Source: Azolla caroliniana
Taxonomy: Eukaryota; Plantae; Polypodiophyta
DNA: 64,000 nucleotides
Assembly (NCBI GenBank): GCA_043228905.1
Contig: JBHGNT010000017.1
Span: forward strand, 14,694,001-14,758,000
Reading direction: 5' to 3'
Each line of letters starts with the position of its first letter. Positions within the stretch are counted from its first letter, which is position 1. Shown in pieces: positions 4,870 through 35,429 of this stretch. Both the position numbers and the translations under genes were made by a program. The notes beneath the pieces are model-generated. The model ran no database searches. It was not told the DNA's origin and saw only the letters and a list, made by a program, of their open reading frames with translations.

Positions 4870-5355
4870 ATCATATATTTGACAACACTTTCCATGATCA
4901 TGATTTCAATGGGAAGTGACCCCATCTCAAGAAGTGGGAGGGGTTTATGGTGTTTGTTTCTTGACTTGGAGAAACTTTGTAAGAAAATTTTGATTTTGGA
5001 CATTTTCAAACTCTTTCCAAGGGGACTTAGGGATGCTACCTTCCCATCCTTCCATCCCATAGAGAGCACTAGTGTCACCTAAGTGTCGAAATGGTATTTT
5101 TTGAGGAACCAACACTTAATTCTCCAAATGCATAATATACTCTTTTTCCCAGGGCTAGCGAATAACACATTCATTCCATCTATTATTTAAACATAAAGAC
5201 CAAGGTAAGCTTTCTACCATTTCAAGTGGCTCATTATTATTTGCATGGTTTATCCATTTTTGGGCTCTAGACAAGCATAATCTTTGTTTAGAGCTATTGA
5301 CACTATCTTAGTATGCATGCAAAATTCTTCCAATGCCCTCATAAACTTTTGCGCA
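4870..5355 (-). mobile_element. LINE (non-LTR) RT 3' fragment
   Basis: Continues the LINE at 22714-25379, with ~85 bp shared by both segments. Degenerate RT C-terminal coding sequence on the minus strand. Confidence 0.6.
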
Positions 5356-8283
5356 TCGGCTACGTCGATTTCGAACAGAGGTACGATCTTCGGATTATCC
5401 TGCAAGTATTGATCTACCTCTTCATCTGCTAATCCGTCCAGCATATTGACGCATTCGGCATATAGGGGTGTCAATTCCTTCCCGGTACACGTCCGTGGTT
5501 GTGTCGGTACCCGTACTTTTGCTTTTCCTTGCCGGAAGGTGATTATATTCTTCCTCCAGTTTTGTTTAATGTGCGCCGTTTTCAACCATGGCCGCCCCAA
5601 CAATAGTGGGTAAGCTCCTTGTGCCTGCAGTTGTAGCACTACTGCCGAGATGCAAAATGTGTGGCCACCGATCGTTACATCCAAATCTCGTATCAAGCCG
5701 GTCGGTCGCATTGAGCTTGTATCCGCCATCCGCAGCCAGAACGGGCATGGTTCCCACTCTTGGATTCCCAAGGTTTTGCACGTTCGGAGGCTAATCACAT
5801 TGACGCCGGATCCTCCATCTATTACTGTTCCAGGTAACTCCTTTCCCTTCACAATGGTTGTGATCGCCGGACTATTTGTGTCTACTACCGCCGGTCCCTC
5901 CTCCGGATTTGAGAAGAATGTTGGAGCCGGTGGTGTTTCTCCTGCCGTCCTGCCTGTCTTGAGTCCTTCTGTGAATCTGGGCACTAGCTGCAAGAGCCAT
6001 CCTAATGGCAGCGTGATTTGGCATTCCCGCAATGCTTGCCAGGTCGCATTTTCGAGCTGACTGCCATCGGCGAGCTCTTCGGTATTTTCCTTTTGCTATG
6101 CAAGCTCTGCCATGTTTTGTGCATTCGCCTTTTTTACCCATTCTGTTGCCTGCTTGCGGATGGCCTCTTGCACCTCCCATTCCGTCTCCTTACCCTTCGA
6201 TCTTGTGGTCACCTGTTGCAGGTCTACGACTTCGGCAACTACCATATTCACCTCTGGTCGTTTATCATAGCTCTTTGCTAGGCATTGATTACTATAATGT
6301 CCTTCTTGTCGGCAATAGTAGCAATATGCTTTCCGGGAGGTGCTGGATTCGGCATTGTTTCCTACTCCCGGTGGAGGACCTGCGGTAACGGCGGGGCTTT
6401 GATCCGGTTGGCTACTTGAGGCGCCCTTCTCCGGTTCCCGTAGGTGACCCCTTTTGTTGAAATGGCGTTTCTTTTTGTTCCGATACTCTTGACGGGGCTG
6501 GTCATCATGTCTGTCGTAGGCTTCCCATCGTTGGTTGTAACCGGGGGATTGGTCCCGATTGTATCTTTCATACTGTCCATTATACTCCCGGTACCGATCA
6601 TATCTCTCATACCGGTCAGGGTTGTCCCTATACCGGACATCCTGTGCTGGTCGGCATTGCTCTTCTCACCTCCAACTTTCTTCTTCCTCCTCCTTGGTAC
6701 TCCGTGGTTCGATTTGCAGAACCGGTGGTGCTTGGCGATTCAACAAATTGTACTCGCACTGCTCCATTGTGTGGTTCCTGGAATGGCACAGTAGACATTG
6801 CGACCGCATGGTACATTCTAGTGCTGAGTGTCCAGCATTTAGGCATGTTGTGCATTGAATAGCTTGTCGAAACCGGAGATCCTCATCAGTTGGTAACGCT
6901 CGTTGGAGTGCTCCCATTGTTAGCCAAGAGCTTGTTTTCTCCATTTCTCTAACCCAGTCGATGACCTGGTCGACGATACTTGTGCGAAAGTCGATGACTA
7001 TGCATACCGTACGTAGAGGTTCCCGGAGCGCGGCTAAGAATATAGCCTATGTTTCTTCCTTCAAAGGTGCTCGGGTAAGCTGACTGTGCATCCATTGAAA
7101 CCGGATGACAAACTGTAGAATGCTCTCCCCAAGGTTCTGCCGGATGGTATAAAATAGGTCCACCATTTCTCTCTGGTCCACCTCCTTCTGAAAGAAGTGC
7201 AAGAATTTAGCTTTCAGGTCCACAAAGGTGGTGATGGTGCCGGGGTCCTGCGTCCGGTGCCATCTGGTGGTCAGTCCTTCCAATGTCACGCCAAATTCGG
7301 TTATCTTAGATCGTTCCTCTTCGGCTGCGGTTAACTGTTGTGACACATGGTTCGCCTCCCATGTTTTTTGAAAAGCGTGAACATGAGCCTCCGCGTCCGG
7401 GTCATCCCTATACTTGGGGTACTGGAACGGCATGTCATCGTCCGGTGTTGGTGCGCAGGCTGGCGGTGTCGGTGGTCTTTCCTGCTCTTTCGTCGACGTC
7501 GGAAGTCGTTGTTGGTCCTCTGTCGGAGTCGGAGGTCTTTGCCGGTCCTCCTTCGGTGTTGCCAGCTCGACTTCCGGTGTCGGAGGTCTTTCTTTGTCCT
7601 CTTCCGTCTCCGAAGGTTGCTCCACGTCTAGTGCCGGAGGTTCCCGGTCTGACAATTCTGGTTCCGGTGTCGGTAATGTATCCGACTCCTCGTCCTGTGG
7701 TCCTTCCGGGGTGTCGTTACTGCTACGATAGTTCGTGTGCGCGTTGTAACCCCCTTCCGAATCCGATTCCAGCGCCGAAAATGCTTCGGATTCGCGGGCT
7801 CCTCCGGCCAAGGCCTGGAGAAGGGATTCCGCTTCCCGGAGACTGCTTAAGTTGCTTCCTTCGTCCGGGTAGGCGTTTTGTTGCAGACGGAGCGACTCCT
7901 CCGCCACTTTCAGGATAACTTTGGAAAATGGTCGATCCGATCAGATTTCTTCTGCCACTTGGTGGAAAGCCTCTCACCACCTTCGTCGTTCAACAAGTTG
8001 ACTTGCTCTCTCCGTAACTGGGTCGTCCGTTGGCCTAGTCATCCATTCCCGCCGTTGTTCACTGCGATTGTGCAGGAATCGTGGTCGCCAAAAACTATGT
8101 TAATCCTTAGGGCCGGACAACAGCCTAACACAGGGTGTCCACTTAAGACACTTCACCAAAGGGTGTTACAGCGAGATAACTTACGACACAACGCTTAATT
8201 GGACCTTAATCGGTTACTTAGTAATACGTCATTAACACGCGTAAGATATACAATAAGCACAGAACGGTGAACAATACTTAGTG
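5356..8283 (-). mobile_element. Ty3/gypsy 5' half: LTR end (8283-8098), PBS, gag with zinc knuckles, aspartic protease
   Basis: LTR end ...ggattaaca followed by PBS-like tttttggcgaccac. Gag ORF 7047-7907. CTTCLNAGHSALEC and CLLCHSRNHTMEQC knuckles in 6666-6944. Protease VIDGGSGVNVI...LLGRPWL in 5250-6032. Confidence 0.9.
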
Positions 8284-10042
8284 ATTAAACAAAACTGGAG
8301 GAAGAATATAATCACCTTCCAGCGGGGAAAAGCAAAAGTAAGGGTACCAACACAACCATAGATGGGTACCGAGAAGGAATTGACACCCCTATATGCTGAA
8401 TGCGTCAATATGCTGGACAGATTAGCAGACGAAGAGGTAGACCAATACTTGCAGGATAATCCGAAGATCGTACCTCTGTTCGAAATCGACGTAGCCGAAG
8501 CCGTATCACCATACATACTGCCACCGGACAGAGCCGACGAGGAACCAAATAAAGAAGTGATCCGGGAGCTACGGCAAGCACAAGAGGCGTTGGAAAGAGA
8601 AATGGTCGTATCGCAACGGGTTAAAGCATCCCAACTACGGAAGAGGCAAGAGCGGTGCAAATCGCCAAGGAAATGACTGCGGAGAACAAAACGGCAATGA
8701 TTACACTTCTCAAAGAATTTCGGGACGTGTTTGCCTGGTCTTACGAGGATATGCGAGGGCTCGATCCTCAGCTATATCAGCATCAAATACATTTGATCAA
8801 AGACGCCAAACCGGTAGCACAGCGACGGTACTGAATGAATCCAAATTACGCCGCCAAAGTCAAGGAGGAAATCGACAAGTTGTTGAGGGTTGGCTTTATC
8901 TGCCCAGTAAAGAAATCTACATGGCTGAGCCCAATAGTAGTCGTACCAAAGAAAAACGGAAAATTTAGAGTTTGTGTTGACTACCGTAAGCTTAACGCGG
9001 CGACGGTAACAAATGCATTCCCACTCCCATTTACAGATGGAGTTTTAGACGTAGTCACCGGCCATGAGGTATACAATTTCTTAGACGGATTCAGCGGATA
9101 CAACCAGATCCGAATGCACCCCGATGACCAGGAGAAAACGGCTTTCGTCACCGAATGGGGAGTGTTTGTTGCCGTAGTAATGATGTTCGGACTAAAAACG
9201 GCGCCGGCAACGTTCCAGAGGATCATCATGGAAATCTTTGGAGAATTCATACCGGCATTCATGCAGGTGTTTCTGGATGACTTTGTCGTCTATAGCCGGG
9301 AAGGAGATCACTTTCAGCACCTCCGACTGTGTCTAGAGAAATGTCGGGCTTATCGGCTAAGCTTGAATCCGGCAAAGTGTGTATTCGGAGTGTCAAGCGG
9401 GGCGCTATTAGGACACATTGTGAGCAAGGAAGGAATTGCCATGGACCCGGACAAAGTAAAAGCAATCTTAGAGGCACCGGCACTAACAACGGCCAAAGCA
9501 TTAAGCCGTTTCTTAGGCCAAATCCGGTGGCATAGCCGAATGCTCCGGTATCTGGCGAACCTAGCTACACCGCTGCATGATGCGGTACACTGAACACCGT
9601 TCCAGTGGACCGACACCAAAGACAAGGCGTACCGGGCACTCAAACTACTATTGTCGCAAGTGCCGGTAGTGCAACCCCCGGATTGGGCTAAGGAGTTTCA
9701 TGTGTTCGTGGATGCGTCCGACATTGCAATCGGAATCGCGCTGATGCAACTTACGGAGCCAAGGTGGTACCGACCTGTATATTACGCAAGCCAAAAGTTA
9801 TCCCAAGCCGAACGAAATTATTCCACCACGGAAAGGGAAGCTTTGGGCATGATCTACAGCGTGACAAAATTCAAACATTATTTGCTGGGAAGGAAATTTT
9901 CCTTCCATGTACGTCATTCGGCACTCCTCTATTTAGTTTCCAAAGTGTCACTAACCGGTAAGTTGGCACGGTGGACATTACTGTTGCAGGAATTTGAGTT
10001 TGAAATATTCCACCGACCCGGCATACAGCACGCAGTAGTAGA
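8284..10042 (+). pseudogene. Ty3/gypsy pol: RT and RNase H (frameshifts and stops)
   Basis: WLSPIVVVPKKNGKFRVCVDYRKLN, LDGFSGYNQI, MFGLKTAPATFQR, VFLDD, FVDASDIAIG, NYSTTEREAL, ARWTLLLQEF. Confidence 0.95.
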
Positions 10043-10597
10043 GGGTAAAAGCATGCGAGTGGAAACACTATTATAGCTAATTAGCTACTAAAATGGCCAT
10101 AGCTAATTAGCTATTTGTTTAGCTAGTGTTTTTTATGGGAAAATCAAATATTTGAAAAACTAATTTATGAAAAAACTCAAATATTTGAACTTCTGTTTCA
10201 GACGTAGTGGAACTTGGGGAATATCACCATCATCTAAGGTCGACTTCAATGTCATCAATTTCCTGTTTAGCCTAAGTCTGATTTTGAACGCAGATGGAGT
10301 ACTCAGAGCACGAACGCAGACATAGCTCCCGCAACAGCAAAAAATCGACATTGCAGATTGAGAGCTACAACACAGAACCCGCTCGATCATCGTCCAGGTA
10401 TGTTTCAGTTACAGAAACCCCAAACATTTGTTTTTTCTTTTTGACTACTGTCTGAACTTTGGTGCCGATTCATATTTCCCCAAAATCGAATAGGGCGAAG
10501 TCCTTGGAGTCCCATACAAGGATGTCTCGCAAATCGGGGAGTAGCAACAGGTGTGTTTATATTACTTTTTTTGTGTGTAATCCTGTCTTTAGTGATG

Positions 10598-11070
10598 ATT
10601 GGGGTTTCTGATTGAAATTTCTGATTAGGGTTTTTGTTTATAAATTGCTTATTAGAATTTCTGATTAGGGTTTGTGATTGAAATTTCTGATTAGGGTTTG
10701 TGATTGAAATTTCTGATTAGGGTTTTTGATTATAAATTTCTGATTAGAATTTCTTAATAGGGTTTCTGGTTACAAATTTTGATTACAAATTAGAATTTCT
10801 GAATAGGGTTTTTGTTTATAAATTTCTGCTTAGGATTTCTGATTAGGGTTTGTGATTGAAATTTTTTATTAGGGTTTCTGATTGAAATTTCTGATTAGGG
10901 TTTTTTATTATAAATTTCTGATTAGAATTTCTGAATAAGGTTTCTGGTTACAAACTTCTGATTACAGATTTTGATTAGGGTTTCTGATTTCAAACTTCTG
11001 ATTACAGATTTTGATTAGGGTTTCTGATTTCAAATTTCTGAATACAAATTATGATTAGGGTTTCTGATTT
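10598..11070 (+). repeat. Telomere-like / telobox-containing tandem array (GATTAGGGTTT(C/T/G)TGATT..., ~26-39 bp units)
   Basis: About a dozen TAGGGTTT cores inside a GT...AG intron (10550-11175). Confidence 0.8.
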
Positions 11071-12039
11071 GCTAAGTTAAAGATTTTGCACCATTTTTGT
11101 TGTTGTTGATTGGGGTTTTTGATTCTCACATATTCTGATTTTGCACTATTTCTGATTTCTGAAATGATATTTCAGATGGCTCATTCCTCCGTATACGAGA
11201 GTGCTAAACTTCGCAAAATTTTGCGAGACAAAGGAGGACTTCCACAACACCTATGGTCTGTCACTCGAGGGTGTTGACCCTGCTGTCCTAAGTGATAAAT
11301 TGATCAGTGATATAGACTGGATGACAGTATATACAGTGCCTAGAGCAAAGTTACTTCTGATGTTACAACAATTAGAAATAAGATTCAGGTAACTATTGTT
11401 TTGCTGGTATGTGATTGTGTTATAAATAACGGGTAAAATGTGCTAATCAAGCATTATCTGGAATAGGTTGCGCAACAGGAGCTTGAATTAGAGGGGCCAC
11501 TGGATCCCCAACGTAAAATAGAACTGCAAATAGAGATCCAGGTTCTTTCAATGAACCTGGACCTTCTAGGTGTAAATACTGTTGCAGATTACAATTTGGA
11601 TAAGCTTCAAGTAAGTTAACGATTCCTGAGCAAAGTTGGTGTATCTTTCAACAACAAGAATAATTAATCGGTAAATTTCTCTGTTGCGTTGAAGGAACAA
11701 TACATTCATCAAGAACAGGTAGTTAGCTGCCTTAAGAAGAAGCTACATTTTGTGGAGGGAATGGTAAGGACCAGACAGGATTTGGACCTGAACATTCTTG
11801 CTCCCTTACCAAATGAAGTAGAACCAGAAAATGATTTATTGACAGTTCAAGCACGTTGCATCGCTTGCGGGTTAGGTGTGGAGGACAAAACTGCGTCTTT
11901 GTTGGTTCACCTACAACCATGAAACCACACATACCATCTGCTTTGTTTTCAACATGCTTGTCGAATTGTTGCATTCTGTTTGGGAGATTGCAGTACAACT
12001 CTACCAAATGAGTGGAGAAAACTAACAGGTATACCATAC

Positions 12040-13770
12040 TGTAGCTAATAAGCTTAGTCTTTTCTAATTAGCTATCCTACTAGCTAATTAGCTACTGGCA
12101 GCTAATGAGCTACTAGCTAATTAGCTATCCTAGTAGCTAATTAGCTATGGTACTAGCTAATTAGCTAGTACCATAGTTGTGTAAAAAAGCTAAATAGCTA
12201 TCCTACTAGCTAATTAGCCACTGGCAACTAATTAGTTATCCTAGTAACTAATTAGCTACAGCCATAGTTGTGTAAAGTAGCTAATAAGCTATCCTAGTAG
12301 CTAATTAGCTATGGTACTAGCTAATTAGCTAGTACCATAGTTGTGTAAAAAAGCTAATTAGCTATCCTACTAGCTAATTAGCTACTCGCAACTAATTAGC
12401 TATCCTACTAGCGAATTAGCTATCCTAGTAGCTAATTAGCTACTGGCAACTAATTAGCTATCCTACTAGCTAATTAGCTATCATAGTAGCTAATTAGCTA
12501 CTGACATAGTTGTGTAAAGTAGCTAATAAGCTATGCTAGTAGCTAATTAGCTACTGGCAGCTAATTAGCTGTCCTAGTAGCTAATAAGCTATCCTAGCTA
12601 CTACATAGTTGAGAAAGTAGCTAATTAGCTTTCATTGTAGCTAATTAGCTATCCTAGCTACCACCATAGTTAGTAAAGTAGCTAATTAGCTATCCTAGCT
12701 ACTACCATAGTTAGTAAAGTAGCTAATTAGCTATCCTAGCTACTACCATAGTAGTGTAAAGTAGCTAATAAGTTATCCTACTAGCTAATTAGCTATCCTA
12801 GTAGCTAATTAGCTATGGTACTAGCTAATTAGCTAGTACCATAGTTGTGTAAAAAAGCTAATTAGCTATCCTACTAGCTAATTAGCCACTGGCAACTAAT
12901 TAGCTATCCTAGTAACTAATTAGCTACTGCCATAGTTGTGTAAAGTAGCTAATAAGCTATCCTAGTAGCTAATTAGCTACTAGCAGCTAATTAGCTATCC
13001 TAGTAGCTAATTAGCTATCCTACTAGCTAATTAGCTATCCTACTAGCTAATTAGCTAGTACCATAGTTGTGTAAAAAAGTTAATTAGCTATCCTACTAGC
13101 TAATTAGCTACTGGCAACTAATTAGCTATCCTAGTAGCTAATTAGCTATCCTACTAGCTAATTAGCTGCTGGCAACTAATTAGCTATCGTACTAGCGAAT
13201 TAGCTATCCTAGTAGCTAATTAGCTACTGGCAACTAATTAGCTATCCTACTAGCTAATTAGCTATCATAGTAGCTAATTAGCTACTGCCATAGTTGTGTA
13301 AAGTAGCTAATAAGCTGTCCTAGTAGCTAATTAGCTACTGGCAGCTAATTAGCTGTCCTAGTAGCTAATAAGCTATCCTAGTTACTACATAGTTGAGAAA
13401 GTAGCTAATTAGCTTTCATTGTAGCTAATTAGCTATCCTAGCTACTACCATAGTTAGTAAAGTAGCTAATTAGCTATCCTAGCTACTACCATAGTTAGTA
13501 AAGTAGCTAATTAGCTATCCTAGCTACTACCATAGTTAGTAAAGTAGCTAATTAGCTATCCTAGCTACTACCATAGTTGAGTAAAGTAGCTAATTAGCTA
13601 TCCTAGCTACTACCATAGTTGAGTAAAGTAGCTAATTAGCTATCCTAACTACTACCATAGTTGAGTAAAGTACCTAATTAGCTATCATACTAGCTAATTA
13701 GCTATCGTACTAGCTAATTAGCTATCCTAGCTTCTACCATAGTTTAGTAAAGTAGCTAATTAGCTATCCT
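12040..13770. repeat. Palindromic satellite (TAGCTAATTAGCTA core, ~20-bp period) filling a cargo-gene intron
   Basis: Dozens of copies of the 14-bp palindrome, with a ~0.78-kb higher-order duplication (12601 vs 13385). Bounded by donor GT at 12029 and acceptor AG at 13793. Confidence 0.95.
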
Positions 13771-14578
13771 AAATAACTGTCATGTTATTGTAGAATCTTG
13801 TGGATTAAGGACGGCACATGATGTGTCTGGTGCTGATGATGCTGCAACAGATGAGGATACTACTGCCAATGTGGCTGAAAGTAAGAGTCCTGCTATCACA
13901 TCTCCTTCAGATCAGCTACACCCTATTCTTTTGGAACAGTGTACTGAATTAGGCAACGATGTGAAATGCCATGAAATAGTGGAAACAACATGTAAAACTG
14001 AGGTTCACAACAACAGTGTTTATGAACACTTGATGCAACATTTCTTCGAGTCTCAAGACCTTGATTCCACTCCACCGAGCCCAACTACTGAAAATGTCCA
14101 AACAGATCCCTCTGTACTTGAAAAGCTAGTTCAAGAAACGGCTGATGTGCAATTAGCTGCTGAGGCGATGGGAAGGTTGTCGGAGGAGGACACACTTGCG
14201 CATTGGGTGAAAGAAGCAAGGCTAAATGGGGAACCAACCAGAAAAAGGCTGAAGAAGGGGCCACGATCGGGAACAAGACCAGTTACTCGGTCAAGGGGCC
14301 CAGACGTAGTGGAGCGAAATACTGTTTAGTTGGATATGATTGTTAGCTTAGGGATTTTGCTAGGGTTTTATGAAGTTTTACTATCCTGTTGGACAAGTAA
14401 AACCTCAGATTGGTTGTTGCTTGATCCACATTATGTAATGGAACTCTATGATGTTTTTCCAAGATAATTTGAAGAGTGTTGTTCTATGACTGAAACTCTT
14501 TGATGTTCAGGATATTGTTTTGTGAGACTATTAGTTACTTTGTGAGTGTGAATATGTTGGTGTTTTCTGATGTTGCAG

Positions 14579-15594
14579 AGTCTAAAGGGTTTGATTCTAT
14601 TGCTCGTAAGGCCAATGGCAGTGTGGATACTGTTGATGTTGCGGCATGTTTAAAGGGCCCCATCTTGAAAGTAGATGTAGCAACTGACACAAGTGATCTG
14701 GTCACACAAGTTGATCAAGCATGTAGCACGGATGACTTGGTGTTGCAGGTAGATGCAACATGTAGCACGGATGACTTGGTGTTGCAGGTAGATGCAGCAT
14801 GTGATACCAGTGGACTGATATCGAGCAGATCAGTAGCTACATGCACTGAGGTAATCCAAGGATTGATAACTAAGTCGACAAAACAAGAGCACCAGAATGT
14901 GAAGCTAGGCCCAACACAGTCGACTAGGGGTTTAAAGAGGAAAAGGACACCAGTTGTGTCAGCCGAACCTGAACTGATTGAGATTGATCGTATCCTACCA
15001 AAAAATGGTGTAACAGCGGCTCAGTTTCAGGAATGGAAACCTAAACCACTAGAAGTCGAAAGAAGAGCCTTGATCTTGGAGCTTGATAAAGTCTTGATGA
15101 GTGTGAGATATATGCAGCCAAGGAGGGACGCAAATCAGTTTCTAGAGTGGGCTGTGGAATACTTTGATTTGTTTATTTGGAGTGAAAAACCAAAATCAGA
15201 TGTGTGGAAGTGTTTGGCAAGATTCTTCCCAAAATGGCGAAGTCGTTTTAAAGGTCAATGGGCACGAGAAAATTGTGAGCAAATGGAAGCTGCAAGATTC
15301 AAGAGACTTTCTGATTTTTGGGCTACTTGGCCTGAATATAATGCCGACAATACATTGATTTTGGATACAGAACATTTCCGACACTACTTCAATATTCGGA
15401 GATGCTGTCTCATTCTACCCGAGGAAATGCCTGAACAGTACCTGGTGCAAATAGTGAGCTGCCAACTAGGTGCATGGTTGTGGACTCCATACCGAGCTCA
15501 ATATGCGGATAATATATGTAGACTCGTTCCACTGACTAGCAAGAGCTTAGCTGTTTATAGGAGATTTGTAGACATTTCCAATGGTAATTTATAA
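14579..15594 (+). CDS. FCP1/NIF (HAD-superfamily) phosphatase-like domain exon with degenerate catalytic motif
   Basis: ORF 14500-15594 with acceptor gttgcag at 14578. RALILELDKVL corresponds to the LVLDLDETL motif; PRRDANQFLEWAVEYFDLFIWS, WARENC, KRLSDFW and NTLILD follow NIF-domain order. N-terminal 13-aa repeats (VDAACSTDDLVLQ-like). Confidence 0.65.
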
Positions 15595-15941
15595 ATATGT
15601 AAAGAGATGGCATTATTCAATGAAGAATTTAATTACTTGTTCCCACTGTACTTATCTACTGTGTAATTTGAGGAATATGTTGCAGATTGTTGATTTCATG
15701 CTATTGATGACTATTTAGCTATTGACAGCTAATTAGCTGCATTTGTACAGCTAATTAGCTACTGATGACTATTTCGCTATAACTTATAACTTAAAACTTA
15801 ACAAAAAAGACATGATTTTATTGAGAAAGAAGCACAGAAAGCAGACTGTATACAAGAAATTGATTCCAAACGAATTTATTTAACTGTTTTCGCGAAATAC
15901 ATGTTTGTTTTACAAGAGAACATGGTAAGTGCTACTTGTAG

Positions 15942-17783
15942 CTACAAATTCCATGGCATACTATTGTAAATACATTCATACACATTAGCACCAACAGTGT
16001 ATAAACCAGAGCAGCTATTGTATTTTGACATTGGGACGTTGATGCACCTGACCAAATGAGAGTACATATACGTCGTTGGTTTGTCTTCTAACAGCCTGTA
16101 CACATATTCGTAGTCATCTAGTTTTGCATAAAAAATGCCTTCGATGTAGAATGTCCCGGCAGATACAAAATTTCCCCATGCATCTACAATATTCTGCCTT
16201 GCACACTGTTTACTAACCGTGCACTTTAATATATAGAAATCAGCACCCTCTGAATTGCCTTCTTCAGCATTTACAGCGAAGTTATCCCCAACGTTCAGGA
16301 CATCACTCAAAGTATCTCCAAGTCCCTCATATGTGAAGTCAGCATTCTGCCCTGTTTCTCCATCAACTGCTTCCTTATCATTCAGAGTGTGATACTCCCA
16401 ATTCTGAATGTATGCTTTGTTTAGACAATATCTCCAATTTCCCTGCACACAATGGAAGCAAAAACAAGTCAATTCTCTAACCACAATACAATGACCATCC
16501 AACCTGGAATAACCGCGAACAGCATGCAGAGATCGCAATTCGGGAATTCCTTGGCACTCCCAGGTCTTCTCCCTATTTACTTCATCTATCTTCACTTCCC
16601 AAAATTCACGTTTGATATCTCGGACTTGCGAGGAATAAACACCTGTGGCACTCGTTGACATATTTGTTCTTAAAAATTCAACTACATGTGATGCACAATT
16701 CATGTGCACACCATCTGTCTTTAGTTGTTCATGGGTAAGTGCCCGCTTTATAACAGCCCCTGCACCATCATGTTCACCTTTACCATGGCCAGACCCAAAA
16801 AAATTCCATCTCATCTCCAAACCTGTTATAGCAGGATACCTCCCCACAAAATAAAATGGACGTCGAGCCTTGAATTGTGACGCAGCTCCGTCAGACCAGA
16901 CCCAATGTTGAGTAAGCTCCAAACGTTGAGCTAATAACCACTGCCAATGTAACTTAAAACAGTGTTGGACGAACAAGGTATCATGCTTCTTATCATCGGA
17001 AATAAAGAAATGAATTACTTTTTTAACATCACCTGAAACTCGAAAATATGTTATGTGCACAAAAATGGTTACCTGAACTGAACACCAATGCATAGATTGA
17101 ATTTCATTCTGCTGCTTGAAAGTATAATTCTCTACGAAATCTACTACTGAGACTACTACATCATTTGGGAAATCAGATATGCAAGTCTTAAACTGATGGG
17201 CCTGCCATGAATAAATGAAGTTGTGTTTAATGAACTTTCCTAGAGATACTACAAACAGAGACACCAAATCCCTTGGTTTAAGCATCTTCCGAACTAGATC
17301 CTTTCTTTTACACACCTTTCCTTCGAAATTGGTGTTCACTGACTCAAATAACTTCACAGAGATCAATATTTCACTACTCAATTCATTTGGACACCACCTA
17401 AATCTAGTAGGGCCACAATCTTGACATAAACCCATGACACATTTATGAATATGGAAGATAGCGTCAGTTTCTCTCAGACACAATATTGAATCTAATAAAT
17501 AACTCATGGAAGAGATAACGTGCTCAGATGATTTACACTCCTCTTGCGGGCTTGATCGACAGATTGGGCACCCACATGTGCAAACTGTATTAGTTAGGGA
17601 TGCGCTATGGTGACGTAGTAGATTAACAGAGTCCTTCAGAAAACCCATCTGTACATGGTAAATGCAACAACATGTGTATCGATCCTTTAAGCGTCTCACA
17701 AAGTGTGGCTTAAGAGACTCGAATGTTCGTAGTTGAACTTTGATAGTTGGATGCATTCGTTTGAACCTAATAAATAAATCGAC
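15942..17783 (-). CDS. Sola2-like DDD transposase (main exon, ~610 aa)
   Basis: Open 604-aa ORF, extended in frame to an acceptor at 17784/17785. Motifs DFVENY, WSDGAASQFK, GSGHGKGEHDGAGAVIKR; Cys-rich CCCIYH, CxCxCxxC and CFCFHC regions. Confidence 0.85.
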   Translation of the reverse strand, partial: VDLFIRFKRMHPTIKVQLRTFESLKPHFVRRLKDRYTCCCIYHVQMGFLKDSVNLLRHHSASLTNTVCTCGCPICRSSPQEECKSSEHVISSMSYLLDSILCLRETDAIFHIHKCVMGLCQDCGPTRFRWCPNELSSEILISVKLFESVNTNFEGKVCKRKDLVRKMLKPRDLVSLFVVSLGKFIKHNFIYSWQAHQFKTCISDFPNDVVVSVVDFVENYTFKQQNEIQSMHWCSVQVTIFVHITYFRVSGDVKKVIHFFISDDKKHDTLFVQHCFKLHWQWLLAQRLELTQHWVWSDGAASQFKARRPFYFVGRYPAITGLEMRWNFFGSGHGKGEHDGAGAVIKRALTHEQLKTDGVHMNCASHVVEFLRTNMSTSATGVYSSQVRDIKREFWEVKIDEVNREKTWECQGIPELRSLHAVRGYSRLDGHCIVVRELTCFCFHCVQGNWRYCLNKAYIQNWEYHTLNDKEAVDGETGQNADFTYEGLGDTLSDVLNVGDNFAVNAEEGNSEGADFYILKCTVSKQCARQNIVDAWGNFVSAGTFYIEGIFYAKLDDYEYVYRLLEDKPTTYMYSHLVRCINVPMSKYNSCSGLYTVGANVYECIYNSMPWNL

Positions 17784-17809
17784 CTGCGTAATAAAGGGGA
17801 ATTAGTTAT

Positions 17810-19020
17810 TCTCGTAACTAGCTAACTATCCTAGTAGCTAATTAGCTATTCTAGTAGCTAGTTAGCTATTCTAGTAGCTAATTAGCTATCATGGTAGCTA
17901 ATTAGCTGTCCTAGTAGCTAATTAGCTATCATGGTAGCTAATTAGCTGTCCTAGTAGCTAATTAGTTGTCCTAGTAGCTAATTAGCTATCATGGTAGCTA
18001 ATTAGCTGTCGTAGTAGCTAATTAGCTATCATGGTAGCTAATTAGCTATTCTAGTAGCTAATTAGCTATCATGGTAGCTAATTAGCTGTCGTAGTAGCTA
18101 ATTAGCTATCATGGTAGCTAATTAGCTGTCCTAGTAGCTAATTAGTTGTCCTAGTAGCTAATTAGCTATCATGGTAGCTAATTAGCTGCTCTAGTAGCTA
18201 ATTAGCTATCATGGTGGCTAATTAGCTTTCCTAGTAACTAATTAGCTATCATGGTAGCTAATTAGTTGGTCTAGTAGCTAATTAGCTATCATGGTAGCTA
18301 ATTAGCTGGTCTAGTAGCTAATTAGCTATAATGGTGGCTAATTAGCTTTCCTAGTAACTAATTAGCTATCATGGTAGCTAATTAGTTGGTCTAGTAGCTA
18401 ATTAGCTATCATGGTAGCTAATTAGCTATCATGGTGGCTAATTAGTTGTCCTAGTAACTAATTAGCTATCATGGTAGCTAATTAGCTGGTCTAGTAGCTA
18501 ATTAGCTATAATGGTGGCTAATTAGCTATCATGGTAGCTAATTAGCTATCATGGTGGCTAATTAGATGTCCTAGTAACTAATTAGCTATCATGGTAGCTA
18601 ATTAGTTGGTCTAGTAGCTAATTAGCTATAATGGTGGCTAATTAGCTATCCTAACTAATTAGCTATCATGGTAGCAAATTAGCTGGTCTAGTAGCTAATT
18701 AGCTATCACGGTGGCTAATTAGCTATCCTAGTAAGCTAATTAGCTATCATGGTAGCTAATTAGCTATCATGGTAGCTAATTAGCTTTCCTAGTAGCTAAT
18801 TAGCTGGTAATAACGAAATAACAAACTAGCTACCATGATAGCTAACTAGCTTCCAGTACAACTAATTATCTGGTAGTACCTAAATTAGCTATTGAGAATA
18901 GCTAATTAGCTATCATGGTAGTAGCTATTGAGAGTAGCCAGTTACCTATGTAGTAGCTATCATAGTAGCTAATTAGCTATCATGGTAGCTAATTAGCTTT
19001 CCTAGTAGCTAATTAGCTGG
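17810..19020. repeat. Palindromic satellite with strict 20-bp period (TAGCTAATTAGCTA plus TCATGG- or TCCTAG-type spacer) upstream of the transposase main exon
   Basis: About 50 units in register (17820-18800); alternating spacers give a 40-bp higher-order unit. Confidence 0.95.
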
Positions 19021-19036
19021 TAATAACGAAACCTTT

Positions 19037-19402
19037 TTAAGTAACATCACTATTAAGTAACATCATTAGACTAGACCTTTTTAAGACAAGATCATCTTCT
19101 GACCTGCTCATGGATACGAAACTATTACGAAGATTATTTACTAAAATAGATGATATGTTTGCATTAAGACCATCACAATCAACTAAGTCCTTTATCGATG
19201 GATCATTACATATTCCATAAAGTACTACCTTCTTTTCTTCATTGCTGATGTGCTTGGTTTGAACATTGAAATAGTCTACAACCTTTCTCTCTATGATGGT
19301 AGTCGCATTACTTACATTCTCAGCTAAACTATCCTTACCTTTACTGAGTGTGGCTTTCGTATCCTTCAACAATTGACGATGTTTCCTTTTTTTTCTGCCC
19401 AA
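19037..19402 (-). CDS. Probable N-terminal exon of the transposase (basic NLS-like start), truncated
   Basis: 121-aa ORF starting GRKKRKHR, on the same strand as and upstream of the transposase. It does not splice in phase to the main exon as assembled. Confidence 0.45.
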   Translation of the reverse strand: MGRKKRKHRQLLKDTKATLSKGKDSLAENVSNATTIIERKVVDYFNVQTKHISNEEKKVVLYGICNDPSIKDLVDCDGLNANISSILVNNLRNSFVSMSRSEDDLVLKRSSLMMLLNSDVT

Positions 19403-19839
19403 TAGTTTCGTATGGCTTGTTGTGTCCTGATAACATCATCCCTATCCTTATGATCATTGAGGGGTAATTCTAAACACCCTTCTTCCCCTTCCATTTGGTT
19501 GGACATGTTAAAACCCTAAATTTCCAGAAAAAAAAACAAGTATTAAAGATGGCTATGGGCAACAACAATACACAAAAATATTCCACACAATACACAAGAT
19601 TAGACACAACAATACACAAGATAATCAATAGACAGAAAAGTTATTGCAATCCAAGACCGAACAGTAGAGGATTTCACTCCGTTGGATCCAACAGTTGAGG
19701 AGGCGATCCAAGACCGACCAATGGCAACAACTGAGTGTAGAATGTTGCCGTTGGATGAGTGAACTCCGTCAAATCGAAATGTGGAAGCAATCCGGGACTG
19801 GACAATAGTGGCAACTGAGTATAGAATGATGGCAATGGA

Positions 19840-20495
19840 GGAGAGAACCCCGTCAGATTGAACAGTTACCGATGATGCTTGAAACGCACATAGAAGGCAC
19901 TTGAGAATAGAGTGGCATAGAGAAGAGAACCCCGTCAGATTGAACAGTTACCAATGATGCTTGAAACGCATAGTAGCGGCCCCTGAGTGAGAGTGGAAAA
20001 GAGAAGAGAACCCCGTCAGATTGAATAGCTCTTTGATTATGCTTGGAACGCACAGTAGCAGCCCCTGAGTGTAGAGTGGCAAAGAGAAGAGAACCCCGTC
20101 AGATTGAACAGCTCTTTGATGATGCTTGGAACGCACAGCAGCGGCCCCTGAGTGTAGAGTGGCACAGAGAAGAGAACCCCCTCAGATTGAACAACTCTTT
20201 GATGATGCTTGGAACGCACAGTAATGGCCCCTGAGTGTAGAGTGGCACAGAGAAGAGAACCCCCTCAGATTGAACAGCTCTTTGATGATGCTTGGAATGC
20301 ACAGTAATGGCCCCTGAGTGTAGAGTGGCACAGAGAAGAGAACCCCGTCAGATTGAACAGCTCTTTGATGATGCTTGGAATGCACAGTAGTGGCCCCTGA
20401 GTGTAGAGTGTCACAGAGAAGAGAACCCCGTCAGATTGAGCAGCTCTTTGATGATGCTTGGAACGCACAGTAGCGGCCCCTCAGTGTAGAGTGGC
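19840..20495. repeat. 83-bp tandem repeat (~8 copies)
   Basis: Unit GAGAAGAGAACCCCGTCAGATTGAACAGCTCTTTGATGATGCTTGGAACGCACAGTAGCGGCCCCTGAGTGTAGAGTGGCACA, decaying leftwards. Confidence 0.95.
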
Positions 20496-20848
20496 GGCAG
20501 GTGGACTCGATAGGGTTTAGCAACAGTGGTAGCAACTAACCCACAGTACTCAACTAGAGATGGCCTACGTGATGTGGCAAAGGATCATGCATAATGGACC
20601 TAGGAATTCGATATATAATTTATGGTACACATTTATGGTGCACACATCAATTTATGTTGCACATTTATGGCACTCATTTACATATGTAATTAAAACACTC
20701 TAGTATTTTCAATGGTAGTTTTTTGCATACTTAATTTATTAATGATGGCTTTTTACTAAAATGACTATTTATCAATGGTAGCTTTTTGCATAGCTAATTA
20801 GCTATGTCAAGGACATAGCTAATTGTTTCCACTCGTATGCTTTCACCC

Positions 20849-22445
20849 TAGACTATTTGAGCCGGTTAGATTCCGGCGAGACTGGTGACGGAGTCCCGGA
20901 CGAGTTTCCGGATGCTAAGCTATTTCGAGTCACCGCGGAAACGGCAACAGATGAAACGGTGGCACAAGAAGAAAAGTGGCTAACGAATATGCAACAATTT
21001 CTGAGCACCGGATTGCCTCCGGAGGAGATGACCTGGGACGAGAGGAAACGCCTGGCGGTACAAAGCCAGCACTTCTGTTTAGTACGGGACACGCTATACC
21101 ACAAAGGCGCGGACGGTATATGGCGACTGGCGGTGCGCAGTGACGAGAAGGATATAATACTACGAGAAGCACACTGCGGAGTCGCCAGAGGCCATTACGC
21201 CGGAGATGCTACAGCAAGGAAGATATGGCAAAGTGGCCTATGGTGGCCGACAACATTGAAAGACGCAGTCCAGTACGCTAAAGAATGTGATCTATGTTAG
21301 CGAATGGGCCAGCCAACCGAACAAGCTAGGATACCGCACCAGCCGGTACTGTCGTTAGAACCATTTCAGAAATGGGTCTGGATTTTGTGGGTCCATTCAA
21401 ACCATCAGTAATGAGAACCGACAACCGGTATGTGATCGTAGCTACGGATTACTACACGAAATGGGTAGAAGCCAAAGCCTTTCGTGACAACATCGCAGCA
21501 TCGACAGCGAAATTCTTGTATGAATACATCTGGTGCAGGTATGGATGCCCGATCGAGCTAATAAGTGACCAAGGAGGGCACTTCCTCGGCCAAATGGTGG
21601 AAAGCTTGACGTCGTTCTATGTCGTGGTGCATAAACGGAGCACGCCATACTATCCGCAAGTAAACGGGTTAGCCGAGTCGACGAATAAAACGCTACAGAA
21701 TATCCTTCGGAAAGTCATTAACGAAAACCGGACAGACTAGAATACGAAGTTGCACAGTGCCCTATGGGCTTACCGGACAGCTTACAAAACAAGAATCCAA
21801 ACCACACCGTTCCGGCTAGCATTCGGATTGGAGGTTGTCATGCCAGTAAAGTTCCAGGTTCCGAGGTTACGGATTCAGATTAGGAAACGGTTAAACGAGA
21901 AGGAATCGGAGGCAATTCGGTTAGCAGCTCTGTGTGAACTAGAAGAACACTGACTAGCAAGTATCATGCACCTGGAACTGGAGCAGCGGCGAAGCAGGGC
22001 GTTTGTGGATCGCCACCGAAAAGGAAATGAAAAGATGTTTGGAATCGGCAAGCCGGTACTAGTGTTCCAGACCCGGATGGGAAAGATGCTGGGGAAACTG
22101 CGGTTTCGGTGGACCGGACCGTACTGGATCACACGTGAGTTCAATGGATCCTACCAGTTAGGGACACTTGCCGGCGAGGTCCTGGGTAAGTGGGTCAACA
22201 GATTTCGACTAAAGCCATACAAGGGACCCATGCCAAGGAACCCATTTGAACAAGGAAAGGCCGATGTCAAACCAGATACCGGCATACCGGAAACAACGGC
22301 AACCCGATTAGCAATCGGCAACAACGAAGCCGGTAAGGGGGACAAAGAGCCGGCACACGGGTTGGATAAGAGGTTGGCAAACCGTCACGAGGCTGGCAAG
22401 ATTCCTCATTCGGGTAAGGGTCTGTTAGGACCGGAGACAAATTAA
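20849..22445 (+). pseudogene. Ty3/gypsy integrase region (continuation of pol)
   Basis: AHCGVARGHY...WWPT...CDLC zinc finger, GLDFVGPF, TKWVEA, ISDQGGHF, YYPQVNGLAE, WTGPY (GPY/F); several stops. Confidence 0.95.
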
Positions 22446-25413: not shown

Positions 25414-28100
25414 GAAGAAGTGTGAACAAGTCATTTGATTGAAACAGTGTTCGATTGAAATTTGGGAATATGAGCATAGATGTAATAAATAGCATATAAT
25501 TAAACTCTCTCTCTCTATCTATCTATCTATCTATCTCTCTAACGTTGGCCCCACTATAAGATGAAAATGCCAAAATATATCAAAGCACATCTTACTTTCC
25601 GATGAGCCTAAACACTTCGTCAAACTTGCTCACGCAAGTTAGGTGTTGAGGTAGCGTCATGCCATCATCACCCTAATATGAAGATATGTAAGCTACATGC
25701 AATGAAACCTTTGGTGGATGATGAATATCACTTACTTCTTGTATGCTCAACGTATAAGGTAATTTGCAAGAATTAGACAAGCATGATAATTTAAGTGTCA
25801 TATTCAAATCCCTAAAGCAAGGCAATTGCATTTGTGCGCGCATTATTTTCACACACAGAGTTTTTACTAGAGAGTAGTAACCCCCTTTCTTAGGAAGGAG
25901 TCGCATGCAAGACGATATATGTATTTGGTCACATAGGCCTAAGTTAACCACCTCGTACACGATAAAAAATCTATTCTTTTCCCTTATAGGAAGTGGTGCA
26001 AAATTATGTGCAAAACCTCTAAGAGAAAGTTAAATTATTTGCAATTTGGTCAAGCCTATACTCTTATGATGTGTGTGTGTGTGTGTGTGTGTGATAGTAA
26101 AAGCACACAATTATTGTATATAAAACCCACTTGTTACAACTTCTTAGTCTCCTATGTATGTGTGCATGTGTGTCTCAAAAGACGAGACACCTAAGATGTA
26201 ATCTCTTGTTTGGTTTTATAGGCCATTTTGTCCTCTTGAAAGACGTATATATCCATAGATTGACCCATGCGTGATATTCGTGAAATGCCCCAAGAATATT
26301 ACAAAACCATTCATTTTAAATTTATATAAAAAATTTATTTAATTCACTAAAACATTAATTAAATCACTAAGACAATAATTAATTCACTAATACATTGCTT
26401 AATTCATTAAAATTTAATTAATTCATTAATAATACATTAACAATAAATTAATTAGGGTTTCTGCTAAACTTAGGGTGTCAGTGAAACTGTGAGTTTGTAG
26501 CCGAGAACAGGATGTAGGATTAGCGTAGAGCATGAGAGGGAGGTGAGGATGCATGCCAAAAAGAAGAAATACGGTCAAAATTAGGATTTTGATTGAAACT
26601 AGGGTTTCAGCCAAAACCCTAATTTTTTGGCCGAGAACAGGATGCAAAGGGAGGCGAGGGTGTAAGCACACACAGAGAACAGTGTGAGGCCCCTCGCTTG
26701 CTGCTTGCTATTCACTCACTCACACAATTTGTTTTTCCAAAGAAAACAATTATTTTTTCGAAAAAAGAAAAGAAAATGAATACATTTAAATGTATTCATA
26801 TTCGCATTCCTAGCATTAGTGGGGCTTGCCCTATGAATGCGAATATGTCAATCTATGTATATATCAAGATGTTTTGGGAGATTATATGGAGAAATCTTAA
26901 GAGAAAGTTAAATTATATGCAATTTTGTTAAAGCTTGAAGAGGAGGCCTTTGATTCAGTACATACAATATACTAGCGCTAGGTAACCTAATTATTTAATT
27001 TATCAAGAGTTAACATGATTTAGATCGTTTAAAAAAGAAAAAAAAACTTTATCTTCTCATAAGGTCATCCCATGCTATGTATTTTCATATCATGTGTTTT
27101 TTATATAGCTTTAACTTTGTTATGGTTTTTATGAATATGGTGTTCCTAATATGGGATTGTGAAAGTGAATGGCCCATTTCATACTTACACCTAAAATAAA
27201 GTGCATTTGAAGTTGAAAGGTGACATAAAAATATATATAGAAGGGCAAGTTTGACCGTAAATACATATCCTTAGGTGTAGTGTAAGCAAAGTATTCCTCA
27301 ACATACAACCTTGGGTTGTTTGATACCATGAAAACCATTGGGGCTATAATTGATATTGCACCAAAGTTTTCTCTACAGGAGGGTAATTTATGATATTTAA
27401 CGTTGTATTATGAGTATGTATAATATTTTCCCAAAGACCACAATCATTTGCCAGTCTTATAACTCTACAATAAAATTCATAGCAACCTTTCTAATGAAGA
27501 ATCGAAAATGTTATTGTTTTGCAATGCAACTCTAACTCTTCAATACATGCATTCTTGAATTGAAAATTCGGTTGTTGTATTTCAATCTTCAATATATGTG
27601 TGCTTTCAATGCATGTATTTGTTCTTATTTATTTTAATGTAAAGCATGACATGTTGCATTGCAATCGTCACCGATTGCATCATAGATCCCCCCCAAGGAG
27701 GATGGATGTATATATATATGTAGGTCAACACACATATATCGCATTAAAGGTATTCATGTTTCTTGTGCAAGAAGTAAGTCGGGAATAGGTGTGTGAGACT
27801 AGGACATGGAAGACGAAAGGTGACACTATTCGAGAAAATAATAAATCGGGGGGCGATTTGAACAAGAGAGGACTACTCCTTGATGTTTGGACGACGAAGG
27901 TAAGTAACGTTTGGAAATTCGAAGAAAACAAAGAGTGGAGGAGGGTGGGGCACATAACACAAACAAATACCTTCCATTTGCTTGACCATTAGTTTTTGCA
28001 TACTTGAAGAATTAGATTGAGGGAGGTGATTAAGGAGAGTGATTAAGGAAGGTGATTAAGGAGTAGTACTTCTGAATTCTAAGGAGAAAGCTTAATTAAG

Positions 28101-29069
28101 ATGGGCACCTTGATAGGCCATGTGGCACCTGGGGCAGGGTTTATCCTCATAGGTCTTTGGCACCTTCTCAACACAATCAAGGCCTATGCCCGACAAGGTG
28201 CTCGGGGTTTCAAATCGCGGCCGTGGTTCCCGGCTGCGCCGCCCGGACATCCCGGCCGGCGCGCCGAGCTCTACCTCATCATCTTGGGCTCGCTCCTCTC
28301 GATCGCGTCCGAGCTCTTCATTTTTCCACACCAGCACCACCCCTTCGTCTCACACACCGACCTCTCGATCCCTGCCCAACACCTCAATAACTTCGAGCAC
28401 TCGACCATCTCCCTCTTCTTGCTCATCTATGCGTCCGTGGCCGCACTCGAGGACGGAGGCGCACTCAATCTTGCCGATGGGTTTGTCCACTCCCTCGGCT
28501 CACTCGCATTTGCGGTCGAGCTCTTGCTCTTCCATCTCCACTCGGCCGACCACATGGGCCTCGAGGGCCACTACCACTGGCTCCTCCAATTGATCGTCGC
28601 GGCATGCCTCGTGTTCACACTTGTAGAGATTCACGTGCCCCGGAGTTTCCTTGCATCCCTTGGACGGGCGACTTCGCTCGTCTTCCAAGGGATTTGGTTC
28701 ATTCAAATGGGGCTAGTGCTTTGGGTCCCAAGGTTTACGCCCACTGGATGCGCCATGCAAGACGCGGGTTACCACCGTGTGGTGCGGTGCGAAGGTGAGG
28801 GTGCCTCGCATCGTGCCAAGGCACTCGCGACTTTGCAATTCGCTTGGTACCTCGCCGCTCTTTGTGCCGCACTCATCACTTGGATCACGCTCACGCTTCG
28901 TGGCCCACATGCCGAGATGTCCAAGTCTTATGAGGCCCTCCGCTTCCACCGCGATCCCGATGATGACGACGAGTCCGACACAAGTGCCTCCTTTAAGTTG
29001 GCGCTTCCAAGAGCCACATCCCTAGAGGGCCTCCATGGAGGCAAATCCATGGTCAACCTTCCTAGGTAA
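28101..29069 (+). CDS. TMEM45/DUF716-family multi-pass membrane protein (intronless, 322 aa)
   Basis: MGTLIGHVAPGAGF..GLWHL, HLNNFEHSTIS, LFHLHSADHMGLEGHYHWLLQ, FQGIWF, RAKALATLQF; GC-rich intact ORF. Confidence 0.93.
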   Translation: MGTLIGHVAPGAGFILIGLWHLLNTIKAYARQGARGFKSRPWFPAAPPGHPGRRAELYLIILGSLLSIASELFIFPHQHHPFVSHTDLSIPAQHLNNFEHSTISLFLLIYASVAALEDGGALNLADGFVHSLGSLAFAVELLLFHLHSADHMGLEGHYHWLLQLIVAACLVFTLVEIHVPRSFLASLGRATSLVFQGIWFIQMGLVLWVPRFTPTGCAMQDAGYHRVVRCEGEGASHRAKALATLQFAWYLAALCAALITWITLTLRGPHAEMSKSYEALRFHRDPDDDDESDTSASFKLALPRATSLEGLHGGKSMVNLPR

Positions 29070-34982: not shown

Positions 34983-35429
34983 TTTGTTTGTTGGCCTACT
35001 ATAAGAGAGAGAGAGAGAGAGAGAGAGAGGTTGGGCTATGGTGTCTGGTTTTTGTGTGTTGGTTGATAGGTATACTATAGATGGGTTATCTCTTTACCTA
35101 TATATACTCATATATAGCTTGTATATATACATATATAGTGTATGTGTGTGTGTATGCTTTGTGTGTTCGAATCCTAGCAAAAGCAAGTTACACACAATTA
35201 GGAAAGAGAGATTTTCTTTTAGACAATGTGGACACTACTTTTGGAGAGAAAGAGAGAGAGAGAAAGAAAGAAAGAAAGATATATTAACGTCTTCTAAGAC
35301 CAAATTTGGCCCATGAGACAATTGGTTTACAATAAAAATGGGGTATCTACCCATTCATTTATTGAAAGTAAAAATTAAAATAAAATAAAATAGAACGTAA
35401 GCTAAAGAGTTCTAGAAAATGTGGACACT

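What the first reader, a model, noticed from the sequence alone, without database searches (positions are those of the whole stretch)
10043..20848. Large cargo-bearing Sola2-like DNA transposon in a plant-type genome
Seen: 25-bp GGG...CCC TIRs, a TAGA duplication, clean interruption of a gypsy pol, and a long open DDD-type transposase (DFVENY / SDG / HGKGEHDG). Known: Sola elements have DDD transposases and 4-bp TSDs; Sola2 has GRG termini and was described mainly from animals and protists, while the plant example I recall is moss Sola1. Inference: this is a little-described plant Sola2 lineage with a CACTA/MuDR-like two-gene convergent layout (transposase plus accessory gene) and three distinct internal satellites.
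Basis: partly seen in the sequence, partly recalled or inferred. Interest (0 to 1): 0.85.

Follow-up and report, generated by a model that had tools for sequence, protein, structure and literature searches.

The report
Plant Sola2 transposon with phosphatase-like passenger
This is a real, recently spreading 10.8-kb cut-and-paste jumping gene of the Sola2 type in a land plant; besides its transposase it carries a passenger gene resembling a likely dead RNA-polymerase phosphatase, a combination my literature searches did not find, though this particular copy is broken.

Summary
The element is real and is a Sola2-type DNA transposon. TIRs match at 23 of 25 bases. The 4-bp TAGA duplication is shown by empty-site gypsy contigs. 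Nineteen other ends have unrelated flanks, and only 7 of 19 have A next to GGG, so the AGGG/2-bp alternative fails. The transposase shares the motifs of a published Sola2 alignment and has an integrase-like fold. Corrections: the 'open' ORF is only exon 2; exon 1 has a frameshift and lacks about 100 codons with the HTH, so this copy is defective. There are four arrays of three unit types. Plant Sola2 is not new: a cypress preprint lists it as the commonest DNA transposon, and relatives occur in Klebsormidium, a liverwort, ferns and conifers. New here: the convergent passenger has an FCP1/NIF phosphatase-like domain with E in place of the catalytic D in 29 of 29 relatives, a RING-H2-like exon lies upstream, the transposase ends in a predicted BAH-like domain, and a 14-bp palindrome fills subtermini and introns. 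Passenger function is inferred, not shown. New variant of a known kind.

The parts
10039..10042 (+). Left copy of the 4-bp target site duplication TAGA
   Evidence: empty-site contigs
10043..10067 (+). Left TIR, 25 bp, starts GGG
   Evidence: 8 other left ends with unrelated flanks
10074..10113 (.). Two subterminal copies of the palindrome TAGCTAATTAGCTA
   Evidence: the palindrome lies within 80 bp of the TIR start in 15 of 19 other ends, and 3 of the 4 misses are contigs ending within 49 bp
10596..11069 (.). Array A, 13/40-bp CTGATTAGGG-type units, probably in a 5' intron of the passenger gene (inferred)
   Evidence: intron placement read from GT/AG positions by eye
11176..11610 (+). Candidate first passenger exons: ATG at 11176 (internal structure unresolved, stops in that frame) and an open exon at 11467-11610
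   Evidence: AG/GT borders; not checked with RNA
11695..12028 (+). Exon with RING-H2-like motif C-x2-C-x17-C-x-H-x2-H-x2-C-x11-C-x3-C; in-frame stop at 11920 in this copy
   Evidence: 7 of 7 relatives have Cys there; Pfam RING hits below cut-off, E 0.01-0.9
12064..13771 (.). Array B, built from the 14-bp palindrome (36 exact copies), in a predicted intron
13794..14329 (+). Acidic low-complexity exon or ORF ending in a basic NLS-like stretch
   Evidence: no Pfam hit
14494..15594 (+). Open ORF ending in an FCP1/NIF (HAD) phosphatase-like domain with ELDKV in place of DxDxT (Glu codon at 15079)
   Evidence: Pfam NIF E 2.7e-7, above cut-off; ESM Atlas 0.93; low-confidence model matches HAD, TIM50, UBLCP1, SCP1 and Fcp1 folds; E in 29 of 29 relatives
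15975..16328 (-). Predicted BAH-like C-terminal domain of the transposase (residues about 486-603)
   Evidence: VIA Z 6.3-6.9 to eight BAH-containing chains over the same range; covered in 30 of 42 aligned rows, with conserved aromatic residues
15942..17783 (-). Transposase exon 2, open for 613 codons: Cys-rich region, RNase H-fold DDD core, BAH-like tail
17826..19018 (.). Array C, 20-bp units of the same palindrome (21 exact copies), in the transposase intron
19037..19506 (-). Transposase exon 1, defective: frameshift near 19390, truncated at about 19043, HTH-bearing ~100 codons and splice donor missing
19838..20495 (.). Array D, 8 copies of an 83-bp unit, upstream of the transposase
20791..20804 (.). 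Right subterminal palindrome
20824..20848 (-). Right TIR, 25 bp
   Evidence: 11 other right ends
20849..20852 (+). Right copy of the TSD TAGA

Best explanation
This is a defective copy of a young, multicopy Sola2-type cut-and-paste transposon family whose ends, 4-bp target duplication and DDD transposase are shown, and whose convergent passenger gene likely encodes a catalytically dead FCP1-type phospho-protein-binding domain that the family keeps for its own benefit. Shown: GGG-ended 25-bp TIRs, a 4-bp AT-rich duplication, many unrelated insertion sites, Sola2 motifs and an integrase-like core, and the passenger beside the transposase in at least two further subfamilies. Inferred: the transposase, made from two exons, grips the TIRs and subterminal palindromes through its N-terminal HTH and inserts the element with a 4-nt staggered cut. 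The intronic palindrome arrays are expanded binding sites for an element protein. The BAH-like tail reads chromatin to pick targets. The passenger, possibly spliced to the upstream RING-H2-like exon, acts as an adaptor or decoy at phosphorylated Pol II tails or related substrates and helps the element stay transcribed. This copy cannot make a full transposase; it was either moved in trans or decayed after insertion.
For: TIR and TSD. Nineteen other ends with no two flanks alike; the 4 adjacent bases are AT at 60 of 76 positions against 59% background. L015 is 99.3% identical over 554 bp and L016 99.8% over 488 bp; their contig labels show coverage 102 and 64, against about 1-13 for the other 17 loci. 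Window motifs DFVENY, QNEIQSMHW, SDDKKHD, SDGAASQFK and FFGSGHGKGEHDG line up by eye with the Sola2 alignment in PMC3627910 suppl. S10. The model (pLDDT 86.8) matches integrases and Mos1 at Z 9-10. Passenger: Pfam NIF above cut-off; open in four clusters at 68-98% identity; the NIF part is more conserved than the linker in the most distant subfamily (73.5% vs 65.5%); ELDK in 29 of 29. Five contig lengths (8892, 9606, 10576, 12681, 17573) are shared between transposase and NIF cluster members, about 0.01 expected by chance.
Against: No Sola1, Sola3 or other reference transposases were in the tree, so membership rests on motifs and ends. A TSD was shown for one insertion only. Co-location rests on contig lengths, and 8892 also appears for a more distant transposase, P0191. 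NIF relatives were found only at 68% identity or more, so the passenger may be limited to this family in one plant group. The NIF domain is less conserved than the transposase between subfamilies (73.5% vs 87.7%). The NIF model is poor (pLDDT 48), the BAH Z-scores are middling and the RING hits are below cut-off. Whether RING and NIF form one protein is unresolved: the simplest splice at 14305 is out of phase with 14579.
Confidence: 0.72

Rival explanations
1. The element is Sola2, but the passenger is a neutral hitch-hiker, as in Pack-MULEs: host gene pieces captured once and copied along with the family.
For: NIF relatives were found only at 68% or more. This copy's RING exon has a stop. The catalytic Asp is lost. 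No RNA joint was seen.
Against: The frame is open across subfamilies that differ by about 30%. The NIF domain is more conserved than its linker. ELDK is invariant in 29 of 29. The RING Cys/His residues are kept in 7 of 7 relatives except for two truncated or divergent C-ends.
Confidence: 0.18
2. The passenger is an active but altered HAD enzyme (Glu as nucleophile, or a non-protein substrate), or a purely structural transposition cofactor like MURB or the Harbinger Myb protein, unrelated to Pol II.
For: The second Asp of motif I and a 'LILD' motif-IV-like stretch are kept. The best fold rows are generic HAD hydrolases. TIM50, an FCP1-like domain with a non-catalytic role (role recalled), tops.
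Against: HAD catalysis needs the first Asp (established knowledge). No binding data either way.
Confidence: 0.2
3. The transposase belongs to another superfamily with AGGG ends and a 2-bp AG duplication.
For: The window copy alone can be read this way.
Against: Only 7 of 19 other ends have A beside GGG (T 5, G 5, C 2). The motifs are Sola2-like. The nearest ESM clusters are animal transposase-like proteins.
Confidence: 0.02

Closest known systems
Sola2 DNA transposons (Bao et al. 2009, recalled and not readable; Sola2 alignment in PMC3627910 suppl. S10, read)
   Same: DF(A/S)ENY, QxEIQSxHW, SDG..QFK and HGK..DG motifs; short G-starting TIRs; 4-bp AT-rich TSD
   Different: Plant host, two-exon transposase with a predicted BAH-like tail, convergent RING-like/NIF-like passenger, 37% tandem arrays
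Sola2-Fanzor1 elements of Dictyostelium and Polysphondylium (PMC3627910; passages, suppl. S10 and S11 read)
   Same: Sola2 element with a second gene, short TIRs, 4-bp AT-rich TSD
   Different: Their cargo is a Fanzor nuclease; here it is a phosphatase-like/RING-like gene
Sola1-1_Ec32 of Ectocarpus (PMC12477816; passages read)
   Same: Large Sola element (21.5 kb) with an accessory gene on the opposite strand, proposed to act on the element's own epigenetic state
   Different: Sola1, brown alga, ParB plus DNA methyltransferase cargo
Sola2 of Cupressus sempervirens (bioRxiv 10.64898/2026.07.23.736688; section 7 read, Table 3 is an image, supplements closed)
   Same: Sola2 abundant in a land plant
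   Different: That section gives only a superfamily label; no structure or cargo
Arabidopsis BAH-PHD-CPL2 complex (PMC7718874; abstract read)
   Same: A BAH reader (AIPP3, one of the fold matches) coupled to a Pol II CTD phosphatase
   Different: A host silencing complex with an active phosphatase and a PHD finger; here a likely dead domain and a RING-H2-like motif. Analogy only.

Membership tests
Sola superfamily | DDD transposase with RNase H fold | tested here: met
   D215, D298 and D339 lie on the first strand, at the end of the fourth strand and at the start of the following helix of the model; Z 9-10 to integrases and Mos1
Sola superfamily | 4-bp target site duplication | tested here: met
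   TAGA with empty-site contigs; shown for this one insertion only
Sola superfamily | Terminal inverted repeats on a multicopy mobile element | tested here: met
Sola2 | Sola2 signature motifs | tested here: met
   By-eye match to PMC3627910 suppl. S10; motif table
Sola2 | GRG...CYC termini (recalled from Bao 2009) | tested here: met
   GGG in the window; the 19 other ends were found with a GGG pattern, so they do not test it independently. Amoebozoan Sola2 ends start GAA, GAG or GTT, so the feature is not universal
Sola2 | Clusters with Repbase Sola2 rather than Sola1 or Sola3 in a tree or HMM test | not testable with these tools
   No reference sequences or profiles on hand; Pfam gave no hit, and PMC5751038 states Sola domains lacked Pfam matches
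Element with AGGG ends and 2-bp TSD | Invariant A outside GGG | tested here: not met
   7 of 19 ends
FCP1/SCP (NIF) phosphatases | FCP1-homology HAD domain | tested here: met
   Pfam NIF above cut-off; Atlas
FCP1/SCP (NIF) phosphatases | Catalytic DxDx(T/V) motif | tested here: not met
   ELDK(V/I) in the window and 29 of 29 relatives
RING-H2 E3 ligases | C3H2C3 zinc-ligand pattern | tested here: inconclusive
   Eight ligands present, last pair spaced by three; Pfam below cut-off
BAH domains | BAH fold with aromatic cage | tested here: inconclusive
   Z 6.3-6.9 within a 613-residue model; domain not folded alone; conserved aromatics not mapped onto a cage
Autonomous element | Intact full-length transposase | tested here: not met
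   Exon 1 frameshift and truncation

The most novel reading that the evidence does not exclude
DNA transposons of non-flowering plants carry their own counter-silencing kit: a BAH chromatin reader on the transposase plus a RING-linked dead FCP1-like domain that decoys or degrades host CTD-phosphatase silencing machinery such as BAH-PHD-CPL2, recruited through palindrome arrays, and captured repeatedly by Sola and CACTA elements.
Probability: 0.17. Interest if true: 0.82.

Novelty: new variant of a known kind. Interest (0 to 1): 0.52.

Why it matters
Sola2 appears to be a long-standing part of streptophyte genomes, with named relatives from Klebsormidium to conifers, yet my searches found only labels for it in plants and no anatomy. 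This family gives one: ends, target preference, exon structure and cargo. If the passenger proves to be a selected pseudo-phosphatase/RING protein, it would be a new type of transposon accessory factor aimed at Pol II phosphorylation rather than DNA methylation. That is directly testable in moss or liverwort models.

Tried and rejected
No whole genome is held, so copies could not be collected end to end. Only one left/right 4-mer pair (AAAA, L001/L002) matched among 8 x 11 ends, and it is unverified as one insertion. The AGGG/2-bp model was rejected. Viral contigs gave 60 pattern hits and 0 relatives. Genome contigs gave 2 of 31, both in sparse, eukaryote-looking DNA inside bacterial MAG records, so not taken as bacterial Sola2. 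No RNA holder is on record. Three runs guessed to be RNA cover parts of the coding stretches but show no splice joint, and one X18 contig looks like a deleted copy, so expression is undecided. Pfam has no hit for the transposase. PDB sequence searches gave nothing for the NIF alignment or the transposase tail. Foldseek alone gave only weak rows. My first joined exon model was off by one base and was discarded. The tree is the quick one, with 76 rows; P0069, P0071, P0073, P0076 and P0079 were left out; long-branch warnings apply, and no reference Sola sequences were included. Paper searches for the cargo combination found nothing relevant: 2 unrelated papers; 0 each; some searches gave only general mentions. 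Repbase itself could not be searched, so the family may already be catalogued there. Read depths are not copy numbers and are not used as counts.
Full report
Observation. The element spans 10043-20848 (10,806 bp). Its 25-bp ends match at 23 positions, begin with GGG and are flanked by TAGA on both sides. It interrupts a gypsy pol between the RNase H and integrase domains. Laying public contigs on the left junction showed other gypsy copies running from 10042 directly into the letters found at 20853 (30 contigs in X10, 10 in X14; 8 in X8 with a variant 4-mer). Exactly four bases were therefore duplicated. The window is land-plant DNA, judged from a GDP-mannose-epimerase-like exon and gypsy and copia elements (read by eye). 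The nearest named short matches are fern proteins (Adiantum, 66-72% over 9-12% of the query), but the host was not determined.

Family. An exact TIR scan of metagenome contigs found 19 further ends, 8 left and 11 right. No two flanks are alike. The base outside GGG is A in 7, T in 5, G in 5 and C in 2, which rules out AGGG ends with a 2-bp duplication. The four adjacent bases are AT at 60 of 76 positions against 59% in the flanks. L015 and L016 are 99.3% and 99.8% identical to the window over about 500 bp, and 13 of 22 listed runs hold half or more of the element's words. The family is young and multicopy.

Transposase. The 613-codon ORF has 80 relatives among 3,766 candidates. Named hosts are Calypogeia, Cryptomeria, Taxus, Adiantum, a thrips and Klebsormidium. 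Its motifs DFVENY, QNEIQSMHW, SDDKKHD, SDGAASQFK and FFGSGHGKGEHDG match by eye the Sola2 alignment of PMC3627910, supplement S10. The model (pLDDT 86.8) aligns with integrases and Mos1 at Z 9-10 over residues about 196-392. A quick tree puts the window in a 67-row group (SH-aLRT 84) that holds all named plant rows kept, but it has no reference Sola sequences. Residues about 486-603 align with eight BAH-containing chains (DNMT1 BAH1 Z 6.9, rmsd 2.8, 86 residues; also MTA1, EBS, DIM2, ZMET2, two ORC1 chains and AIPP3). This is middling support. The region is covered in 30 of 42 aligned rows and has conserved aromatic residues. The ORF begins at a splice acceptor and is exon 2. Exon 1 starts at 19506, has a frameshift near 19390 and stops matching at 19043. 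Relative P0169 continues for about 100 more residues with an HTH-like stretch (Pfam E 3e-4, below cut-off) that is absent here. This copy is defective.

Passenger. On the plus strand, 14494-15594 ends in a Pfam NIF (FCP1-like) domain (E 2.7e-7; Atlas 0.93; weak model with HAD-fold matches). The catalytic DxDxT reads ELDK(V/I) in the window and in 29 of 29 relatives that cover the motif, so it is likely a pseudo-phosphatase. Four clusters at 68-98% identity keep the frame open, and the domain is more conserved than its linker in the farthest subfamily (73.5% vs 65.5%). Five contig lengths are shared between transposase and NIF cluster members, with about 0.01 expected by chance, so the two genes very likely travel together in two further subfamilies. 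One of those lengths also occurs for a more distant transposase. Upstream lies an exon with a RING-H2-like motif, broken by a stop here and with Cys at that place in 7 of 7 relatives. Whether RING and NIF form one protein is open: the RING exon is in phase with the 13794 exon, but the simplest donor at 14305 is not in phase with 14579. RNA gave no answer.

Arrays. Four arrays cover 37% of the element. Arrays B and C are built from the perfect palindrome TAGCTAATTAGCTA. All 60 copies in the window lie inside the element, three of them subterminal, and the palindrome recurs near the TIR in 15 of 19 other ends. This pattern suggests binding sites for an element protein (inferred).

Mechanism. Shown: ends, duplication, mobility, Sola2 motifs, fold and linked cargo. 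Inferred: HTH binding to ends and palindromes, a 4-nt staggered insertion at AT-rich sites, chromatin reading by the BAH-like tail, and an adaptor or decoy role for the dead FCP1-like domain, possibly with RING-based ubiquitination. I put the Sola2 assignment at about 0.93, a selected passenger at about 0.7, and the specific counter-silencing role at about 0.17-0.25. The analogy to BAH-PHD-CPL2 (PMC7718874, abstract) is a lead only.

What is known. Reviews list Sola in moss and Capsicum (PMC10741241, PMC9033089; passages). Ceratopteris has a 'Sola' row (PMC6890710). The Cupressus preprint names Sola2 as its commonest DNA-transposon superfamily (table image and supplements not seen, and they may hold more). 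Cargo-bearing Sola elements are published: Sola2-Fanzor and Sola1-1_Ec32. Searches for an FCP1/NIF or RING cargo found nothing relevant; Repbase and the original Sola paper were not available. Unchecked notes of this scan mention FCP1-like cargo in a moss-like Sola element and a moss CACTA element in other genomes; no look-alike sequence was found. These are leads, not support.

Verdict. A real Sola2-type element and a new variant of a known kind. The plant host is less novel than claimed and the copy is dead. The pseudo-phosphatase/RING cargo, BAH-like tail and palindrome arrays make it worth follow-up. Interest 0.52.

Noticed in passing
L001-L019, 6 bases outside the TIR: G at position -6 in 11 of 19 flanks and A/T at -4 in 18 of 19; a possible target motif beyond the 4-bp site. 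The window copy has A at -6 on both sides.
   Followed up: partly
window 18793-18818 and 19006-19031: A stretch of about 26 bp of array C's end is repeated right at the point where exon 1 is cut off, suggesting the deletion arose by slippage or recombination with the array.
   Followed up: partly
window 5250-8500: The gag/protease part of the host gypsy lies on the minus strand while pol lies on the plus strand; 5353-5570 and 8284-8501 form a 218-bp inverted pair (93%), pointing to an inversion or a second element.
   Followed up: no
window 52917-58452: Near-complete copia element on the minus strand with 673-bp LTRs 95.8% alike, each holding a 54-bp tandem repeat; L017's copy of the Sola element is inserted in a related copia.
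   Followed up: no
window 47175-48922: Element-like stretch bounded by 183-bp inverted repeats (96%), possibly a Mutator-like non-autonomous element.
   Followed up: no
window 28083-29069 and 34566-35093: Host genes: a GC-rich single-exon membrane-protein-like ORF and the first exon of a GDP-mannose-epimerase-like gene (read by eye).
   Followed up: no
L020 10001-10475, L021 10001-10478: Animal-type Sola2 fragments in gene-poor, eukaryote-looking DNA (collagen-like exons in L021) filed in bacterial MAG records; likely host contamination.
   Followed up: partly
window 15727-15760: Two degenerate copies of the palindrome lie between the convergent 3' ends of the two genes.
   Followed up: no
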